NCBI RefSeq assembly: GCF_057098645.1
Contig: NZ_CM169472.1
DNA: 64,000 bases
Strand: one strand, 5' to 3'
In this document: one piece after another, positions 17,060-54,830 of the stretch
How the letters are laid out: each line of letters opens with the position of its first letter
Position numbering within the stretch: position 1 is the stretch's first letter
Made by a program: the position numbers and the translations under genes
The notes under the pieces: model-generated
The model's database searches: none
What the model saw: only the letters and a program-made list of their open reading frames with translations
What the model was told of the DNA's origin: nothing

Positions 17060-17094
17060 TTCCTCTCCTCTGGATTTGGGGGAGAGGAGTTTTG
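17060..17094 (+). terminator. Rho-independent terminator after yadH
   Basis: Hairpin CCTCTCCTCtggatttggGGGAGAGGAG followed by tttt. Confidence 0.65.
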
Positions 17095-17157
17095 ACGGCT
17101 ATCACCCTTTATCAACAATGGTCAGGGTAGACTGATTTTCGGCTAAGGAGGAAGGCG

Positions 17158-34682: not shown

Positions 34683-34755
34683 GTGAGGCACTCGGTTATG
34701 AATTACCGCAATGCTACAATGTGGCGCGAAGAATGTTAACCCTCTGGAGCGTTTT

Positions 34756-37185
34756 GTGTCGTCGTTGCCCGTTGCTGCCGTCTTACCTGAATTACTTACC
34801 GCTCTCGATTGTGCGCCGCAGGTATTATTAAGTGCGCCGACCGGGGCCGGGAAATCAACCTGGCTGCCGCTGCAACTGCTGGCGCATCCCGGCATTAACG
34901 GGAAAATTATCCTGCTGGAGCCGCGTCGTCTGGCGGCGCGTAACGTCGCGCAACGGCTGGCGGAGCTGCTTAACGAAAAGCCAGGCGATACCGTTGGCTA
35001 CCGGATGCGTGCGCAAAACTGCGTCGGGCCGAATACCCGCCTGGAAGTAGTTACCGAAGGCGTGCTGACGCGGATGATCCAGCGTGACCCGGAACTGAGC
35101 GGTGTTGGATTGGTGATCCTTGATGAATTTCATGAGCGTAGCTTGCAGGCGGATTTGGCGTTTGCGCTGTTACTCGATGTGCAACAAGGTCTGCGTGATG
35201 ACCTTAAACTGCTGATTATGTCGGCTACGCTGGACAACGACCGCTTGCAGCAAATGCTGCCAGAAGCGCCCGTCGTCATCTCAGAAGGGCGCTCGTTTCC
35301 GGTTGAACGCCGTTATTTACCGCTGCCCACGCATCAGCGTTTTGACGATGCCGTTGCGGTAGCCACCGCTGAAATGCTGCGTCAGGAAAGCGGATCATTA
35401 CTGTTATTTTTACCTGGCGTCGGAGAAATTCAGCGTGTGCAGGAACAACTGGCTTCGCGCATCGGCAGTGATGTATTGCTCTGCCCGCTGTATGGCGCGT
35501 TGTCGCTGAACGATCAGCGAAAAGCGATCCTCCCGGCACCGCAAGGGATGCGCAAAGTGGTGCTGGCGACCAATATTGCTGAAACCAGTTTAACCATCGA
35601 AGGTATTCGTCTGGTGGTGGATTGTGCCCAGGAGCGTGTGGCGCGTTTTGATCCGCGCACGGGGCTTACGCGACTGATTACTCAACGCGTTAGCCAGGCA
35701 TCCATGACGCAGCGTGCCGGGCGCGCCGGGCGTCTGGAGCCGGGTATCTGCCTGCATTTAATCGCCAAAGAACAAGCAGAACGCGCTGCCGCGCAAAGTG
35801 AACCGGAGATCTTACAAAATGATCTTTCCGGTTTGCTGATGGAATTACTGCAATGGGGATGCAGCGATCTGGCGCAGATGAGCTGGCTGGATCAACCGCC
35901 AGCAGTGAATTTACTGGCCGCGAAACGCCTGTTAAAGATGCTGGGGGCGCTGGACGGTGAACGGCTTAGTGCGCAGGGGCAAAAAATGGCAGCGCTGGGT
36001 AACGATCCGCGTTTAGCGGCAATGCTGGTTAGCGCAAAGAGCGACGACGAAGCTGCTACCGCGGCAAAAATTGCCGCCATTCTCGAAGAGCCCCCACGGA
36101 TGGGCAATAGTGACCTGGGCGTGGTGTTTTCGCGCAATCAACCAGCCTGGCAGCAACGTAGTCAGCAACTGTTAAAAAGCTTAAACGTACGCGGCGGTGA
36201 GGCAGACAGTTCGCTTATCGTGCCGCTACTTGCCGGGGCTTTTGCCGATCGCATTGCTCGCCGCCGTGGGCAAGATGGTCGCTATCAACTGGCGAACGGC
36301 ATGGGAGCGATGCTCGATGCCGATGACGCGCTAAGCCGCCACGAATGGTTGATCGCACCGTTATTATTGCAGGGCAGCGCCTCGCCGGATGCGCGGATTT
36401 TACTGGCGCTACCGGTCGATATTGATGAATTAGTGCGACGCTGTCCGCAGCTGGTGCAGCAATCTGACACCGTGGAATGGGATGACGCGCAAGGTACACT
36501 GAAAGCCTGGCGTCGGCTGCAAATCGGTCAGTTGGCGGTGAAAGTGCAGCCACTGGCGAAACCGTCAGAAGACGAGTTGCATCAGGCGATGCTTAACGGC
36601 ATCCGTGATAAAGGTTTAAGCGTGCTCAACTGGACGGCGGAAGCGGAACAGCTACGCTTGCGTTTGTTATGCGCCGGAAAGTGGTTGCCAGAATATGACT
36701 GGCCAGCGGTTGATGATGAAAGTTTGTTGGCGACGCTGGAAACGTGGCTGCTGCCACATATGGCCGGTGTACATTCACTACGCGGCCTGAAATCACTCGA
36801 CATTTATCAGGCACTACGCGGATTACTTGATTGGGGAATGCAGCAACGTCTGGATAGTGAATTGCCTGCGCATTACACTGTGCCGACGGGAAGCCGGATC
36901 GCCATTCGTTATCATGAAGATAACCCGCCCGCGCTGGCGGTGAGAATGCAGGAGATGTTTGGTGAGGCCACTAATCCGACGATCGCCCAGGGGCGCGTGC
37001 CGCTGGTGCTGGAATTGCTTTCACCTGCCCAAAGGCCGCTGCAAATCACGCGTGATTTGGGGGCCTTCTGGAAAGGGGCGTATCGTGAGGTGCAAAAAGA
37101 GATGAAAGGGCGTTATCCCAAACACGTCTGGCCGGACGACCCGGCAAACACGGCACCGACGCGACGGACGAAAAAGTATTCGTAA
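34756..37185 (+). CDS. hrpB: ATP-dependent RNA helicase HrpB (DEAH-box)
   Basis: ORF 34711..37185; start refined to the GTG at 34756 (MSSLPVAAVLPELLTALDCAPQVLLSAPTGAGKST...), 809 aa; Walker A GAGKST and DEFH box are present; GGAG Shine-Dalgarno upstream. Confidence 0.9.
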   Translation: MSSLPVAAVLPELLTALDCAPQVLLSAPTGAGKSTWLPLQLLAHPGINGKIILLEPRRLAARNVAQRLAELLNEKPGDTVGYRMRAQNCVGPNTRLEVVTEGVLTRMIQRDPELSGVGLVILDEFHERSLQADLAFALLLDVQQGLRDDLKLLIMSATLDNDRLQQMLPEAPVVISEGRSFPVERRYLPLPTHQRFDDAVAVATAEMLRQESGSLLLFLPGVGEIQRVQEQLASRIGSDVLLCPLYGALSLNDQRKAILPAPQGMRKVVLATNIAETSLTIEGIRLVVDCAQERVARFDPRTGLTRLITQRVSQASMTQRAGRAGRLEPGICLHLIAKEQAERAAAQSEPEILQNDLSGLLMELLQWGCSDLAQMSWLDQPPAVNLLAAKRLLKMLGALDGERLSAQGQKMAALGNDPRLAAMLVSAKSDDEAATAAKIAAILEEPPRMGNSDLGVVFSRNQPAWQQRSQQLLKSLNVRGGEADSSLIVPLLAGAFADRIARRRGQDGRYQLANGMGAMLDADDALSRHEWLIAPLLLQGSASPDARILLALPVDIDELVRRCPQLVQQSDTVEWDDAQGTLKAWRRLQIGQLAVKVQPLAKPSEDELHQAMLNGIRDKGLSVLNWTAEAEQLRLRLLCAGKWLPEYDWPAVDDESLLATLETWLLPHMAGVHSLRGLKSLDIYQALRGLLDWGMQQRLDSELPAHYTVPTGSRIAIRYHEDNPPALAVRMQEMFGEATNPTIAQGRVPLVLELLSPAQRPLQITRDLGAFWKGAYREVQKEMKGRYPKHVWPDDPANTAPTRRTKKYS

Positions 37186-37192
37186 GGTTGGT

Positions 37193-37283
37193 TTTCTCCC
37201 TCTCCCTGTGGGAGAGGGCCGGGGGGAGGGCATCAGCGCGCACGTTCACCCTCACCCTCAAGGGAGAGGGGACCGATCGAGCA
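37193..37283. repeat. GC-rich palindromic intergenic repeat built of CCCTC/GAGGG units (possibly boxC-like)
   Basis: Sequence ttctccctctccctgtgggagagggccggggggagggcatcagcgcgcacgttcaccctcaccctcaagggagaggggaccgatcg contains nested inverted repeats (tctccctctccc / gggagaggg and ccctcaccctc / gggagagggg). Confidence 0.5.
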
Positions 37284-37368
37284 CAAATTTTGAGAGATAT
37301 CTTCTTCTGTCTTGTAACAGAAGAACAGAAAATCGGGCTTTTGCGCCTGAATATTGCGGAGAAAAAGC

Positions 37369-39903
37369 ATGGCCGGGAATGACCGCGAGCCAATTGGACG
37401 CAAAGGGAAACCGACGCGTCCGGTCAAACAAAAGGTAAGCCGTCGTCGTTACGAAGATGACGATGATTACGACGATTATGATGACTATGAGGATGAAGAA
37501 CCGATGCCGCGCAAAGGTAAGGGCAAAGGCAAAGGGCGTAAGCCTCGTGGCAAACGCGGCTGGCTATGGCTGCTGTTAAAACTGGCTATCGTTTTTGCCG
37601 TGCTGATCGCCATTTACGGCGTTTATCTCGATCAAAAAATTCGTAGCCGTATTGATGGCAAGGTCTGGCAACTGCCTGCGGCAGTTTATGGTCGAATGGT
37701 CAACCTTGAGCCAGACATGACCATCAGCAAGAACGAGATGGTGAAGCTGCTGGAGGCAACACAGTATCGTCAGGTGTCGAAAATGACCCGTCCTGGCGAA
37801 TTTACTGTGCAGGCTAACAGCATTGAGATGATCCGCCGTCCGTTTGATTTTCCGGACAGCAAAGAAGGGCAGGTGCGTGCGCGTCTGACCTTTGATGGCG
37901 ATCATCTGGCGACCATCGTCAATATGGAGAACAACCGTCAGTTCGGTTTCTTCCGTCTTGATCCGCGCCTGATCACCATGATCTCCTCACCAAACGGTGA
38001 GCAGCGTTTGTTTGTGCCGCGCAGTGGTTTCCCGGATTTGCTGGTGGATACTTTGCTGGCGACAGAAGACCGCCATTTCTACGAGCATGATGGAATCAGT
38101 CTCTACTCCATCGGACGTGCGGTGCTGGCAAACCTGACAGCCGGACGCACGGTGCAGGGGGCGAGTACGCTGACGCAACAGCTGGTGAAAAACCTGTTCC
38201 TCTCCAGCGAGCGTTCTTACTGGCGTAAAGCGAATGAAGCCTACATGGCGCTGATCATGGACGCGCGTTACAGCAAAGACCGTATTCTTGAGCTGTATAT
38301 GAACGAGGTGTATCTCGGTCAGAGCGGCGACAACGAAATCCGCGGCTTCCCGCTGGCGAGCTTGTATTACTTTGGTCGCCCGGTAGAAGAATTGAGCCTC
38401 GATCAGCAGGCGCTGTTAGTCGGTATGGTGAAAGGAGCGTCCATCTACAACCCGTGGCGTAACCCGAAACTGGCGCTGGAGCGACGTAATCTGGTACTGC
38501 GTCTGCTGCAACAGCAACAGATTATTGATCAAGAACTCTATGACATGTTGAGTGCGCGTCCGCTGGGTGTTCAGCCGCGCGGTGGGGTGATCTCTCCTCA
38601 GCCAGCCTTTATGCAACTGGTGCGTCAGGAGCTTCAGGCTAAATTAGGCGATAAGGTAAAAGATCTCTCCGGCGTGAAGATCTTCACTACCTTTGACTCG
38701 GTGGCCCAGGACGCGGCAGAAAAAGCCGCCGTGGAAGGCATTCCGGCACTTAAGAAACAGCGTAAGCTGAGCGATCTTGAAACTGCGATTGTGGTCGTCG
38801 ACCGCTTTAGTGGTGAAGTTCGTGCGATGGTCGGAGGTTCTGAGCCGCAGTTTGCGGGCTACAACCGTGCGATGCAGGCGCGGCGTTCGATTGGTTCCCT
38901 TGCAAAACCAGCGACTTATCTGACGGCTTTAAGCCAGCCGAAAATCTATCGTCTGAATACGTGGATTGCGGATGCGCCAATCGCGTTACGTCAGCCGAAT
39001 GGCCAGGTCTGGTCACCGCAGAACGATGACCGTCGTTATAGCGAAAGCGGCAGAGTGATGCTGGTGGATGCGTTGACCCGTTCGATGAACGTGCCGACGG
39101 TAAATCTGGGGATGGCGCTGGGGCTGCCTGCGGTTACGGATACCTGGATCAAACTGGGCGTACCGAAAGATCAGTTGCATCCGGTTCCGGCAATGCTGCT
39201 GGGGGCGTTGAACTTAACGCCAATCGAAGTGGCGCAGGCATTCCAGACCATCTCCAGCGGTGGTAACCGTGCACCGCTTTCTGCGCTGCGTTCGGTAATC
39301 GCGGAAGATGGCAAGGTGCTGTATCAGAGCTTCCCGCAGGCAGAACGCGCTGTTCCGGCACAGGCGGCGTATCTGACACTATGGACCATGCAGCAGGTGG
39401 TACAACGTGGTACGGGTCGTCAGCTTGGGGCGAAATACCCGAACCTGCATCTGGCAGGGAAAACAGGGACTACCAACAATAACGTAGATACCTGGTTTGC
39501 GGGCATTGACGGCAGCACGGTGACCATCACCTGGGTCGGCCGTGATAACAACCAGCCGACCAAACTGTATGGTGCCAGCGGGGCAATGTCGATTTATCAG
39601 CGTTATCTGGCTAACCAGACGCCAACGCCGCTGAATCTTGTTCCGCCAGAAGATATTGCAGATATGGGCGTGGACTACGACGGCAACTTTGTTTGCAGCG
39701 GTGGCATGCGTGTCTTGCCGGTCTGGACCAGCGATCCGCAATCGCTGTGCCAGCAGAGTGAGATGCAGCAGCAGCCGTCAGGCAATCCGTTTGATCAGTC
39801 TTCACAGCCGCAGCAACAGCCGCAACAGCAACCTGCTCAGCAAGAGCAGAAAGACAGCGACGGTGTAGCCGGTTGGATCAAGGATATGTTTGGTAGTAAT
39901 TAA
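37369..39903 (+). CDS. mrcB: Penicillin-binding protein 1B (bifunctional glycosyltransferase/transpeptidase)
   Basis: ORF 37354..39903 (first codon TTG); start refined to the ATG at 37369 ([22 protein letters not shown]...), 844 aa; acidic/basic N-terminal tail, transmembrane helix, and the transpeptidase SxxK-type motifs. Confidence 0.95.
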
Positions 39904-53360: not shown

Positions 53361-53405
53361 AGAACACAGCAATTTTGCGTTATCTGTTAATCGAGACTGA
53401 AATAC

Positions 53406-54830
53406 ATGAAAAAAACCACATTAGCACTGAGTGCACTGGCTCTGAGTTTAGGTTTGGCGTTATCTCCGCTCTCTGCAACGGCGGCTGAGACTTCTTCAGC
53501 AACGACAGCCCAGCAGATGCCAAGCCTTGCACCGATGCTCGAAAAGGTGATGCCTTCAGTGGTCAGCATTAACGTAGAAGGTAGCACAACCGTTAATACG
53601 CCGCGTATGCCGCGTAATTTCCAGCAGTTCTTCGGTGATGATTCTCCGTTCTGCCAGGAAGGTTCTCCGTTCCAGAGCTCTCCGTTCTGCCAGGGCGGCC
53701 AGGGCGGTAATGGTGGCGGCCAGCAACAGAAATTCATGGCGCTGGGTTCCGGCGTCATCATTGATGCCGATAAAGGCTATGTCGTCACCAACAACCACGT
53801 TGTTGATAACGCGACGGTCATTAAAGTTCAACTGAGCGATGGCCGTAAGTTCGACGCGAAGATGGTTGGCAAAGATCCGCGCTCTGATATCGCGTTGATC
53901 CAAATCCAGAACCCGAAAAACCTGACCGCAATTAAGATGGCGGATTCTGATGCACTGCGCGTGGGTGATTACACCGTAGCGATTGGTAACCCGTTTGGTT
54001 TGGGCGAGACGGTAACTTCCGGGATTGTCTCTGCGCTGGGGCGTAGCGGCCTGAATGCCGAAAACTACGAAAACTTCATCCAGACCGATGCAGCGATCAA
54101 CCGTGGTAACTCCGGTGGTGCGCTGGTTAACCTGAACGGTGAACTGATCGGTATCAACACCGCGATCCTCGCACCGGACGGCGGCAACATCGGTATCGGT
54201 TTTGCTATCCCGAGCAACATGGTGAAAAACCTGACCTCGCAGATGGTGGAATACGGCCAGGTGAAACGCGGTGAGCTGGGTATTATGGGGACTGAGCTGA
54301 ACTCCGAACTGGCGAAAGCGATGAAAGTTGACGCCCAGCGCGGTGCTTTCGTAAGCCAGGTTCTGCCTAACTCCTCCGCTGCAAAAGCGGGCATTAAAGC
54401 GGGGGATGTGATCACCTCACTGAACGGTAAGCCGATCAGCAGCTTTGCCGCACTGCGTGCTCAGGTGGGTACTATGCCGGTGGGCAGCAAACTGACCCTG
54501 GGCTTACTGCGCGACGGTAAGCAGGTTAACGTGAACCTGGAACTGCAGCAGAGCAGCCAGAATCAGGTTGATTCCAGCTCCATCTTCAACGGCATTGAAG
54601 GCGCTGAGATGAGCAACAAAGGCAAAGATCAGGGCGTGGTAGTGAACAACGTGAAAACGGGCACTCCGGCTGCGCAGATCGGCCTGAAGAAAGGTGATGT
54701 GATTATTGGCGCGAACCAGCAGGCAGTGAAAAACATCGCTGAACTGCGTAAAGTTCTCGACAGCAAACCGTCTGTGCTGGCACTGAACATTCAGCGCGGC
54801 GACAGCACCATCTACCTGTTAATGCAGTAA
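53406..54830 (+). CDS. degP: Periplasmic serine endoprotease/chaperone DegP (HtrA)
   Basis: 474-aa ORF with signal peptide MKKTTLALSALALSLGLALSPLSATA, catalytic GNSGGAL motif and two C-terminal PDZ domains. Confidence 0.96.
   Translation: MKKTTLALSALALSLGLALSPLSATAAETSSATTAQQMPSLAPMLEKVMPSVVSINVEGSTTVNTPRMPRNFQQFFGDDSPFCQEGSPFQSSPFCQGGQGGNGGGQQQKFMALGSGVIIDADKGYVVTNNHVVDNATVIKVQLSDGRKFDAKMVGKDPRSDIALIQIQNPKNLTAIKMADSDALRVGDYTVAIGNPFGLGETVTSGIVSALGRSGLNAENYENFIQTDAAINRGNSGGALVNLNGELIGINTAILAPDGGNIGIGFAIPSNMVKNLTSQMVEYGQVKRGELGIMGTELNSELAKAMKVDAQRGAFVSQVLPNSSAAKAGIKAGDVITSLNGKPISSFAALRAQVGTMPVGSKLTLGLLRDGKQVNVNLELQQSSQNQVDSSSIFNGIEGAEMSNKGKDQGVVVNNVKTGTPAAQIGLKKGDVIIGANQQAVKNIAELRKVLDSKPSVLALNIQRGDSTIYLLMQ

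What the first reader, a model, noticed from the sequence alone, without database searches (positions are those of the whole stretch)
37193..37283. GC-rich nested palindrome between hrpB and mrcB
The 90-bp element between the hrpB stop and the mrcB start is built from CCCTC and GAGGG units forming at least two hairpins (tctccctctccc/gggagaggg and ccctcaccctc/gggagagggg). It has no T-run, so it is not a canonical intrinsic terminator, and it lies in the mrcB 5' region where it could affect transcription or mRNA stability. Shorter palindromes with the same CCTCTCC/GGAGAGG core occur after yadH (17060-17094) and after cdaR (56174-56206), which suggests one dispersed repeat family, possibly the boxC class of enterobacterial repeats.
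Basis: seen in the sequence. Interest (0 to 1): 0.35.

Follow-up and report, generated by a model that had tools for sequence, protein, structure and literature searches.

The report
Known BoxC repeat pair, partly decayed
The GC-rich palindrome between hrpB and mrcB is a slightly decayed copy of a well-known E. coli intergenic repeat (BoxC, also published as PIT, TMECO and HPGQ), already catalogued at this exact locus, so it is real but ordinary.

Summary
The window is E. coli and matches O145:H28 strains at 100%. Bases 37198-37231 fit the published BoxC/PIT/TMECO consensus CCCTCNCCC-N3-6-GGGNGAGGG-N3-GGGNGAGGG (type B, + strand). Bases 37249-37284 are the inverted type A partner, which has lost 12 bp (two CCCTNN units) relative to K-12.

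The K-12 orthologue is listed as TMECO no. 1 and 2 (Holder 2015) and as HPGQ no. 5 and 6 (Kaplan 2016). The same paper's Fig. S6 already shows deletions at this site.

Across 5,426 complete E. coli genomes, about 65% carry the element and about 35% have an empty site. Intermediate alleles of 103, 97 and 91 nt, and one collapsed to a single hairpin, show stepwise slippage or deletion.

The element ends 7 nt upstream of the predicted mrcB -35 box, so it lies upstream of the promoter and not in the 5' UTR. It has no terminator-type T-run.

The two "shorter palindromes" after yadH and cdaR are not family members. They lack the GGGNGAGGG block, score at chance level against a family profile, and are single-copy.

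Verdict: already known, low interest. The most likely reading is a structure-prone dispersed repeat with no locus-specific function.

The parts
37183..37185 (+). hrpB stop codon (TAA); the repeat motif starts 12 nt downstream
   Evidence: ORF 34711..37185; RefSeq annotation of identical or orthologous records
37192..37243 (+). Left BoxC unit, type B, about 52 nt: TTTTCT-CCCTCTCCC-TGT-GGGAGAGGG-CCG-GGGGGAGGG-CATCAGCGCGCAC. The triplex/G4-motif core is 37198-37231. The third block carries G instead of the usual T (GGGGGAGGG versus GGGTGAGGG), a variant seen in the ~25 genomes that carry the exact window allele, all listed ones being O145:H28 or unserotyped.
   Evidence: Pattern matches; nhmmer against the 23 K-12 TMECOs gives E = 2.6e-4. 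Equals TMECO no. 1 in Holder 2015 Table 1. The flanks TTTTCT and CATCAGCGCGCAC are shared with the ilvC-ppiC, argF and E. cloacae copies. Allele distribution.
37198..37206 (+). Block 1 (CCCTCTCCC), the C-rich arm of the Watson-Crick hairpin
37210..37218 (+). Block 2 (GGGAGAGGG), the purine arm of the hairpin. It is also one of the direct repeats between which the O111-type collapse deletion occurred.
37222..37230 (+). Block 3 (GGGGGAGGG), the proposed third strand of the published intrastrand triplex and the fourth G-tract region of the published G-quadruplex reading
37249..37284 (-). Right BoxC unit, type A, inverted and truncated. On the + strand it reads CCCTCACCC-[12 nt missing]-TCAA-GGGAGAGGG-GACCGATCGAGCAC. 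K-12 has CCCTCACCC-TAA-CCCTCTCCC-TCAA-GGGAGAGGG. Only two blocks remain, so it no longer fits the three-block consensus.
   Evidence: Alignments with K-12; nhmmer partial hit at 37269-37248, minus strand, E = 0.039, covering model positions 3-24 only. Equals TMECO no. 2 in K-12. The tail GGGGACNG...GCAC is shared by other type A copies.
37290..37318 (+). Predicted sigma-70 mrcB promoter TTGAGA (37290-37295) - 17 nt - TGTAAC (37313-37318), immediately downstream of the repeat. Not part of the repeat; given for orientation.
   Evidence: Shimada 2014 genomic SELEX table, hrpB>mrcB spacer, mapped onto. The consensus scan did not call it, because the match is weak.
37302..37325 (+). Conserved dyad or hairpin TTCTTCTGT-N6-ACAGAAGAA within the mrcB promoter/leader. 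Not part of the repeat; present in filled and empty alleles and in other genera.
   Evidence: 3 pairs with compensatory changes among 5 sequences
37369..37371 (+). mrcB start codon

Best explanation
The element is a composite of two BoxC repeats (synonyms: PIT element, TMECO triplex motif, HPGQ G-quadruplex/hairpin motif) in inverted orientation. An intact type B unit lies on the + strand (37192-37243). A type A unit lies on the - strand (37249-37284) and has lost 12 bp in this O145-type lineage.

BoxC is a dispersed, G/C-rich, strictly intergenic repeat found in E. coli and many other bacteria. At this locus it fills the variable spacer between the hrpB stop codon and the mrcB core promoter.

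The most likely account is that it has no locus-specific function. It persists as a neutral or nearly neutral repeat. Its blocks are short direct repeats with CCCTNN periodicity and also inverted repeats, so it is prone to replication slippage and deletion. That produces the observed series: full pair, minus 6 nt, minus 12 nt, single hairpin, empty site.

Shown here: its identity, its copy number, the allele series and its position relative to the predicted promoter. Inferred: slippage as the deletion mechanism, and the absence of function.
For: **Identity**
- The left unit fits the published consensus, and the family profile scores it E = 2.6e-4.
- K-12 coordinates 164547-164580 (+, type B) and 164631-164597 (-, type A), flanked by hrpB and mrcB, are TMECO no. 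1 and 2. They are also HPGQ no. 5 and 6.
- Holder et al. state that this motif was earlier described as BoxC and then as PIT.
- They also report that inverted pairs always combine a type A with a type B unit. That is the arrangement seen here.

**Dispersed family**
- K-12 has 23 copies.
- O145 RM9872 has 12 matching places, and the median across E. coli genomes is 22.
- The same roughly 52-nt unit occurs at ilvC-ppiC, near argF, and in the E. cloacae hrpB-mrcB spacer.

**Dispensability and instability**
- 3,534 of 5,426 genomes carry the element and 1,885 carry the empty allele. The downstream promoter/leader is identical in both.
- Alleles of 103, 97 and 91 nt, a collapsed hairpin and an empty site all exist. 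The deletions are bounded by direct repeats.
- Holder et al. Fig. S6B describes deletion to a stem-loop at TMECO 1/2, which is this locus.
- Loss of 12 bp weakens the DNA palindrome from -33.7 kcal/mol (z = -6.1) in K-12 to -22.3 kcal/mol (z = -2.4) here.

**No function found by others**
- PIT elements showed no promoter or terminator activity, and in vivo DMS footprinting did not support a stable triplex.
Against: - Absence of function is an inference from dispensability and from published reporter assays done on other copies. Nothing was measured at this locus.
- Other lineages carry a different structured element in the same slot. Citrobacter amalonaticus has a REP, Enterobacter has one inverted BoxC, and an Escherichia-like contig has a small GC hairpin. 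This could mean that some hairpin downstream of hrpB is favoured.
- The copy count in the source genome comes from BLAST places, not from a full pattern scan.
- Whether the empty allele is ancestral or derived is unresolved.
Confidence: 0.88

Rival explanations
1. The pair serves as the 3' end of the hrpB transcript. It would act as a long RNA hairpin that protects the mRNA from 3' exonucleases, or as a road-block that limits read-through into mrcB, much as REP elements do elsewhere.
For: - The element starts 7-12 nt after the hrpB stop codon.
- The + strand RNA folds at -52.4 kcal/mol, matched by 0 of 200 shuffles.
- The same slot holds a REP in C. amalonaticus, a single BoxC in Enterobacter, a BoxC array in Pseudocitrobacter, and a small GC hairpin in an Escherichia-like contig.
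Against: - There is no U-run.
- 35% of E. coli genomes have an empty spacer with no hairpin at all.
- PIT/BoxC elements showed no terminator activity and no effect on RNA polymerase in the tests cited by Holder et al..
- In this strain the structure is being eroded rather than maintained.
Confidence: 0.1
2. The element modulates the mrcB promoter from just upstream. It would do so through a non-B DNA structure (cruciform, intrastrand triplex or G-quadruplex) or by binding a protein.
For: - It ends 7 nt upstream of the predicted -35 hexamer.
- Oligonucleotides of the motif form triplex or G4 structures in vitro.
- RpoD holoenzyme binds this spacer in genomic SELEX.
Against: - The promoter and leader are conserved, and presumably work, in the 35% of genomes that lack the element.
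- In vivo footprinting did not detect a triplex, and no promoter activity was found for PIT elements.
- Published analyses found no consistent distance or orientation of family copies relative to genes.
- The right unit here can no longer form a triplex or a G4, because only two G-blocks remain.
Confidence: 0.04
3. A single dispersed 'CCTCTCC/GGAGAGG' palindrome family includes this element together with the hairpins after yadH and cdaR.
For: - The yadH hairpin contains CCTCTCC...GGAGAGG.
- The two hairpins are the next-best hits of the family profile in the window after the element itself.
Against: - Those profile hits have E = 2.2 and E = 18, which is chance level for 64 kb.
- Neither hairpin has a GGGNGAGGG block or a third block.
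- The cdaR hairpin lacks the heptamer altogether.
- The yadH hairpin is fixed and single-copy in 5,424 genomes. It is followed by TTTT, like a weak terminator.
- The cdaR-yaeH spacer is a single-copy region with two unrelated alleles.
Confidence: 0.03

Closest known systems
BoxC / PIT element / TMECO (Bachellier et al.; Hoyne & Maher 2000; Holder et al. 2015, PMC4666352)
   Same: - The left unit has the same consensus, CCCTCNCCC-N3-6-GGGNGAGGG-N3-GGGNGAGGG.
- It is intergenic and multi-copy.
- It forms an inverted pair of a type B (CCG loop) and a type A (TTA loop in K-12) unit.
- The K-12 orthologue is TMECO no. 1 and 2, and deletion polymorphism at this very site is already published.
   Different: In this O145-type allele the type A unit has lost its middle block (12 bp). 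The type B third block reads GGGGGAGGG instead of GGGTGAGGG, which would give a mismatched triplet in the proposed triplex. These are allelic variants, not a new kind of element.
HPGQ motifs HPG1/HPG2 (Kaplan et al. 2016, PMC5100583)
   Same: The same sequences are read as a G-quadruplex/hairpin/duplex switch. HPGQ no. 5 (+) and no. 6 (-) are listed between hrpB and mrcB.
   Different: The truncated right unit here keeps only two G-tracts on its G-rich strand, so it cannot meet a four-tract G4 definition. This is read directly from the sequence.
REP/BIME (PU) elements
   Same: These are also small, GC-rich, palindromic extragenic repeats in enterobacteria. A REP occupies the equivalent hrpB-mrcB slot in Citrobacter amalonaticus.
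   Different: The sequence is unrelated. REP reads GCCGGATAAGGCG...CGCATCCGGC, whereas this element is built from CCCTCNCCC/GGGNGAGGG blocks. No associated transposase comparable to the REP-associated RAYT is known for BoxC (own knowledge). NC_000913.3 carries no repeat feature at this locus.
Rho-independent terminator
   Same: A GC-rich hairpin placed just after a stop codon.
   Different: No U-run follows the stem, and published assays on family members found no terminator activity.

Membership tests
BoxC / PIT / TMECO | Three-block consensus CCCTCNCCC-N3-6-GGGNGAGGG-N3-GGGNGAGGG (Holder 2015) | tested here: met
   Left unit, 37198-37230: CCCTCTCCC-TGT-GGGAGAGGG-CCG-GGGGGAGGG. nhmmer profile of the 23 K-12 copies gives E = 2.6e-4.
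BoxC / PIT / TMECO | The same three-block consensus, applied to the right (minus-strand) unit | tested here: not met
   Only two blocks remain at 37249-37270 in this strain, and the profile hit covers model positions 3-24 only. The K-12, PapRG-type and Pseudocitrobacter orthologues do meet the consensus or are closer to it. It is therefore a degenerate copy rather than a non-member.
BoxC / PIT / TMECO | Strictly intergenic location | tested here: met
   It lies between the hrpB stop (37185) and the mrcB ATG (37369).
BoxC / PIT / TMECO | Multiple dispersed copies in the same genome | tested here: met
   12 matching places in O145 RM9872 and a median of 22 per E. coli genome. K-12 has 23 copies per Holder 2015. 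There are no further copies inside this 64 kb window.
BoxC / PIT / TMECO | Paired copies are inverted and combine type A with type B | tested here: met
   Type B (CCG loop) lies on the + strand. The partner on the - strand is type A in K-12 (TTA loop).
BoxC / PIT / TMECO | The orthologous locus is catalogued as a family member | tested here: met
   Holder Table 1 no. 1 and 2 and Suppl. Table S2, hrpB/mrcB; Kaplan HPGQ 5 and 6. The window aligns to K-12 across the element.
BoxC / PIT / TMECO | Match to the original 56-bp BoxC consensus of Bachellier et al. | not tested
   The original consensus was not available in the library. Equivalence of BoxC with PIT/TMECO rests on the statement in Holder 2015 and on the 50-56 bp unit size in Petrillo 2008. 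That size is consistent with the roughly 52-nt shared unit seen.
BoxC / PIT / TMECO | Ability to form an intrastrand triplex or G-quadruplex | not testable with these tools
   Only Watson-Crick folding could be computed. The published CD and NMR data concern the consensus oligonucleotides.
BoxC (applied to the yadH 17060-17094 and cdaR 56174-56206 palindromes) | Three-block consensus and multi-copy distribution | tested here: not met
   They contain no GGGNGAGGG block. Profile scores are E = 2.2 and E = 18. Each occurs at one place per genome, and the cdaR palindrome lacks CCTCTCC/GGAGAGG.
Intrinsic terminator | GC-rich stem-loop followed directly by a T/U run | tested here: not met
   No + strand terminator-like site at 36900-37500. 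The nearest TTTT (37288-37291) lies about 9 nt beyond the outermost stem.
REP/BIME | REP (PU) consensus palindrome, GCCGGATG...CATCCGGC-like | tested here: not met
   The sequence read directly has no such motif. Compare the true REP in the C. amalonaticus spacer.
Any Rfam RNA family | Covariance-model match at or near the gathering score | tested here: not met
   Only sub-threshold chance hits were found (mir-326 at 18.8 bits against a gathering score of 66; whalefall-1 at 16.2 against 37). Nothing at this locus passed gathering thresholds.

The most novel reading that the evidence does not exclude
The spacer between the hrpB stop and the mrcB -35 box may be a slot where some structured element is repeatedly favoured. 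It holds a BoxC pair in most E. coli, a BoxC array in Pseudocitrobacter, one inverted BoxC in Enterobacter, a REP in C. amalonaticus and a small GC hairpin in an Escherichia-like contig. On this reading the element would act as a transcript-end or insulator hairpin that sets hrpB mRNA stability and read-through into mrcB. Phylogroups with full, eroded or empty alleles would then differ in PBP1B expression.
Probability: 0.07. Interest if true: 0.4.

Novelty: already known. Interest (0 to 1): 0.08.

Why it matters
This changes little. The element, its family, its pairing rule, its presence at this exact locus and its tendency to suffer deletions have all been published (Holder 2015; Kaplan 2016; earlier BoxC and PIT work).

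The useful outcomes are practical:
- The spacer should be annotated as a BoxC pair rather than treated as a candidate regulator.
- The yadH and cdaR hairpins should not be lumped with it.
- The allele series (103, 97, 91 nt, collapsed hairpin, empty) across 5,426 genomes illustrates how such repeats decay.

The open questions are how BoxC spreads and whether it does anything. Those are questions about the family, and this locus does not make them more tractable.

Tried and rejected
1. **Rfam.** A permissive scan of 36500-38000 and a gathering-threshold scan of the whole window found no RNA family at the locus.
2. **Terminator and promoter scans.** The consensus scan called neither inside or next to the element. 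The promoter quoted here comes from the literature.
3. **Experimental mrcB start site.** Supplements of two start-site papers (PMC4782308, PMC4681348) had no entry for mrcB, hrpB or coordinates 16465x-16469x. The mrcB start site therefore remains a prediction.
4. **Scan of genome contigs with the three-block pattern.** It gave no copy count for Escherichia, and that count came instead.
5. **Ancestral state of the locus.** Outgroup spacers disagree, so gain versus loss could not be settled. Three of the outgroup loci are unnamed metagenome contigs, and two of those are low-coverage assemblies.
6. **Target-site duplication.** Filled versus empty comparisons at hrpB-mrcB and ilvC-ppiC show replacement-type junctions and no duplication. 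A MITE-like transposition model was therefore not supported, though two loci are too few to exclude it.
7. **First BLAST of the 91-nt element alone.** It found only one place in O145 genomes, because the other copies there are of a different subtype. Appending a type A consensus to the query fixed this.
8. **Small ORFs over the element** (for example 37188..37382, 64 aa, TTG start). These were treated as mechanical artefacts, because the region is absent from a third of genomes.

Full report
**1. Where the window comes from and what lies around the element**

Bases 37150-37400 match E. coli O145 strain RM9872 at 100% and K-12 at 94.7%. The annotated features under the match are hrpB and mrcB. 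The hrpB ORF ends at 37185. The mrcB ATG is at 37369, read, and the translation from that base was accepted without stop codons. The intergenic spacer is 183 bp, and the reported element (37193-37283) fills its first half.

**2.

- The repeat finder reports CCCTCTCCC/GGGAGAGGG (37198-37206 / 37210-37218) and CCCTCTCCCT/AGGGAGAGGG (37198-37207 / 37261-37270), both 100% complementary.
- It also reports three direct GGGAGAGGG-like copies.
- The two-block pattern CCCTCNCCC-N3-6-GGGNGAGGG occurs twice in 64 kb, both times inside the element, against 0.00 expected.
- Five of the seven GGGNGAGGG blocks in the window lie in the element, against 1.33 expected.
- As RNA the + strand folds into one long interrupted hairpin of -52.4 kcal/mol (z = -3.3). 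As DNA it folds at -22.3 kcal/mol (z = -2.4).
- No T-run terminator is called, and nothing in Rfam matches.

**3. What it is**

A literature search for boxC led to Holder et al. 2015 (PMC4666352). [quoted passage not shown] They give its E. coli consensus as CCCTCNCCC-N3-6-GGGNGAGGG-N3-GGGNGAGGG, named TMECO.

Window 37198-37230 reads CCCTCTCCC-TGT-GGGAGAGGG-CCG-GGGGGAGGG. That is a type B unit (CCG second loop) on the + strand.

Their Table 1 lists the following for K-12:
- no. 1: CCCTCTCCCTGTGGGAGAGGGCCGGGGTGAGGGC at 164547-164580, + strand, type B;
- no. 2: CCCTCTCCCTTGAGGGAGAGGGTTAGGGTGAGGGT at 164631-164597, - strand, type A.

Supplementary Table S2 names the flanking genes as hrpB and mrcB. 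Kaplan et al. 2016 (PMC5100583) list the same two sequences as G-quadruplex/hairpin motifs HPGQ no. 5 and 6 between hrpB and mrcB.

The window aligns with K-12 across the whole spacer. The element is therefore the orthologue of a published, named repeat pair. NC_000913.3 carries no repeat feature at this locus.

**4. How this copy differs from K-12**

There are two changes.

First, the third block of the left unit is GGGGGAGGG rather than GGGTGAGGG.

Second, the right unit lacks 12 bp:
- K-12 reads CCCTCA-CCCTAA-CCCTCT-CCCTCA-AGGG.
- The window reads CCCTCA-CCCTCA-AGGG, so two 6-nt CCCTNN units are missing.

The truncated right unit keeps only two blocks. It can still form an imperfect hairpin but no longer fits the three-block consensus. 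A profile built from the 23 K-12 copies scores the left unit at E = 2.6e-4. It scores the right unit at E = 0.039, over model positions 3-24 only. The intact K-12 pair is a much better palindrome (-33.7 kcal/mol, z = -6.1) than the window allele.

**5. Unit boundaries**

I compared the K-12 copies at fepB-entC, ygfF-gcvP, alx-sstT, lldD-trmL, ilvC-ppiC and near argF, along with copies in other genera. The conserved unit is longer than the motif core.
- Type B units of this subtype share TTTTCT on the 5' side and CATCAGCGCGCAC on the 3' side, about 52 nt in total.
- Type A units share a GGGGACNG...GCAC tail.

This agrees with the 50-56 bp quoted for BoxC.

**6. Population picture**

| Measure | Count |
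|---|---|
| Complete E. coli genomes searched | 5,426 |
| Genomes matching at least 80% of a 251-nt query that includes the element | 3,534 |
| Genomes matching at least 80% of the empty-site allele of strain MS7163 | 1,885 |
| Genomes with the exact window allele, all listed ones being O145:H28 or unserotyped strains | about 25 |

Intermediate alleles exist:
- 103 nt in K-12;
- 97 nt in PapRG-06-5, with one CCCTNN unit lost;
- 91 nt in PE164 and in O145;
- a collapse to the single hairpin CCCTCTCCC-TGT-GGGAGAGGG in O111:H8 2009C-3675. This is a deletion between the direct GGGAGAGGG repeats at 37210 and 37262.

Holder et al. already describe this "palindrome effect" for TMECO 1/2 in their Fig. 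S6B. They also report raised variability around TMECO sites in general.

**7. Further copies**

- The window itself has no other copy.
- A query joining the locus to a type A consensus finds 12 places in RM9872 and a median of 22 per E. coli genome.
The family assignment stands.

**8. The two "shorter palindromes" are not members**

Neither contains a GGGNGAGGG block. Their profile scores are E = 2.2 and E = 18.

*yadH hairpin (about 17061-17089).*
- It is identical or nearly identical, and single-copy, in 5,424 genomes.
- It folds at -20.5 kcal/mol and is followed by GTTTTG.
- A promoter-like site for the next gene starts at 17092.
- This looks like an ordinary weak terminator.

*cdaR hairpin.*
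- It lacks the CCTCTCC/GGAGAGG heptamers altogether.
- It lies in a convergent cdaR-yaeH spacer that exists in two unrelated single-copy versions.

**9. Position relative to mrcB expression signals**

Shimada et al. 2014 report RpoD holoenzyme binding in the hrpB>mrcB spacer, with the predicted promoter TTGAGA-17-TGTAAC. In the window this is 37290-37295 and 37313-37318. The repeat therefore ends 7 nt upstream of the -35 box and lies outside the mrcB 5' UTR.

The 85 nt from the -35 box to the ATG are nearly invariant in filled and empty alleles, and they are well conserved in Enterobacter, Citrobacter and Pseudocitrobacter. I could not find an experimentally mapped start site.

**10. The same spacer in other genera**

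| Source | Content of the hrpB-mrcB spacer |
|---|---|
| Enterobacter cloacae | One type B unit in the opposite orientation |
| Pseudocitrobacter cyperus | A near-identical B + A pair, followed by further units |
| Citrobacter amalonaticus | A REP sequence |
| Escherichia-like metagenome contig (93% mrcB DNA identity) | Only a small GC hairpin |

The slot is hypervariable, and structured repeats have occupied it repeatedly. Whether the E. coli empty allele is ancestral or derived cannot be decided from these data.

**11. Mechanism**

The best-supported reading is that the element is a member of a dispersed, structure-prone repeat family with no function specific to this locus. The reasons are as follows.
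- A third of E. coli genomes lack it while keeping an unchanged mrcB promoter.
- It is visibly eroding in several lineages.
- Published tests on family members found no promoter or terminator activity, no effect on RNA polymerase, and no stable triplex in vivo.

The deletions are bounded by short direct repeats and occur in multiples of the 6-nt block period. That fits replication slippage, possibly helped by hairpin formation. This step is inferred, not shown.

Two functional rivals remain possible at low probability: a transcript-end or insulator hairpin for hrpB, and structural modulation of the mrcB promoter. The experiments that would decide between them are listed under next steps.

**12. 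Novelty and score**

This is already known. The family has been described under four names. This exact locus appears in two published tables, and its deletion polymorphism appears in a published supplementary figure. The O145-specific allele is a minor variant. Interest is low.

Noticed in passing
window 56143-56230 (cdaR-yaeH spacer); L131: The convergent cdaR-yaeH spacer exists in two unrelated versions. The window type is 88 nt with two adjacent hairpins and covers at least 80% of the query in 3,565 genomes. The version in strain EC958 (O25b:H4-ST131) is a different stretch of about 50 nt with its own GCCGGGT...ACCCGGC hairpin. The genome split is numerically similar to the BoxC presence/absence split at hrpB-mrcB (3,565 versus 3,534).
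   Followed up: partly
window 37302-37325 and 37333-37350: Two small hairpins or dyads lie in the mrcB promoter/leader and are conserved across Escherichia, Enterobacter, Citrobacter and Pseudocitrobacter. The first (TTCTTCTGT-N6-ACAGAAGAA) overlaps the predicted -10 box and shows 3 compensatory pairs among 5 sequences. It could be an operator or an RNA structure. Five sequences are too few to judge.
   Followed up: partly
L005-L124 (genome-contig scan): The exact three-block E. coli motif is abundant in distant bacteria, often as inverted pairs: tens of copies in Mitsuaria chitosanitabida, and also a Methylomirabilota MAG and a Candidatus Contendobacter MAG. Each lineage has its own conserved flanks, for example TCTTCGGG after the motif in Mitsuaria. 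Wide distribution was already reported by Holder 2015. How one motif is kept across phyla remains unexplained.
   Followed up: partly
L129 1077-1108; L126 1075-1112; L130 850-1105: The hrpB-mrcB spacer holds different repeat families in different genera: a REP/PU sequence in Citrobacter amalonaticus, one inverted BoxC in Enterobacter cloacae, and an array of three to four BoxC units in Pseudocitrobacter cyperus.
   Followed up: partly
L136 87-140 versus L137/L138 (ilvC-ppiC spacer): A filled versus empty comparison at another BoxC locus shows 50 nt of repeat replacing 9 unrelated nt (ATTCAGAGT). There is no target-site duplication. The repeat's terminal GTGCG is already present at the junction of the empty allele. 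This argues against a simple cut-and-paste insertion, but it is a single locus.
   Followed up: partly
window 17061-17119: The hairpin after yadH (stem CCUCUCCUCUG..., -20.5 kcal/mol) is followed by GTTTTG and then by a promoter-like TTGACG-16-AACAAT at 17092-17119, upstream of yadI. This is probably an ordinary weak terminator next to a promoter, and it is invariant across E. coli.
   Followed up: yes
window 53366-53411 and 62282-62368: Rfam gathering-level hits to the HtrA 5' UTR thermometer (77 bits) and the t44 sRNA (82.9 bits). Both are expected features of this chromosomal region.
   Followed up: no
L128, L142, L143: Three metagenome contigs were retrieved through MrcB homologues at 90-92% protein identity. 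Two come from low-coverage assemblies (L128 at 2.7x, L143 at 1.5x). L128 carries the K-12 spacer exactly. L142 combines 91% mrcB DNA identity to E. coli with an Enterobacter-like spacer. They may be error-rich or chimeric assemblies and were given little weight.
   Followed up: no
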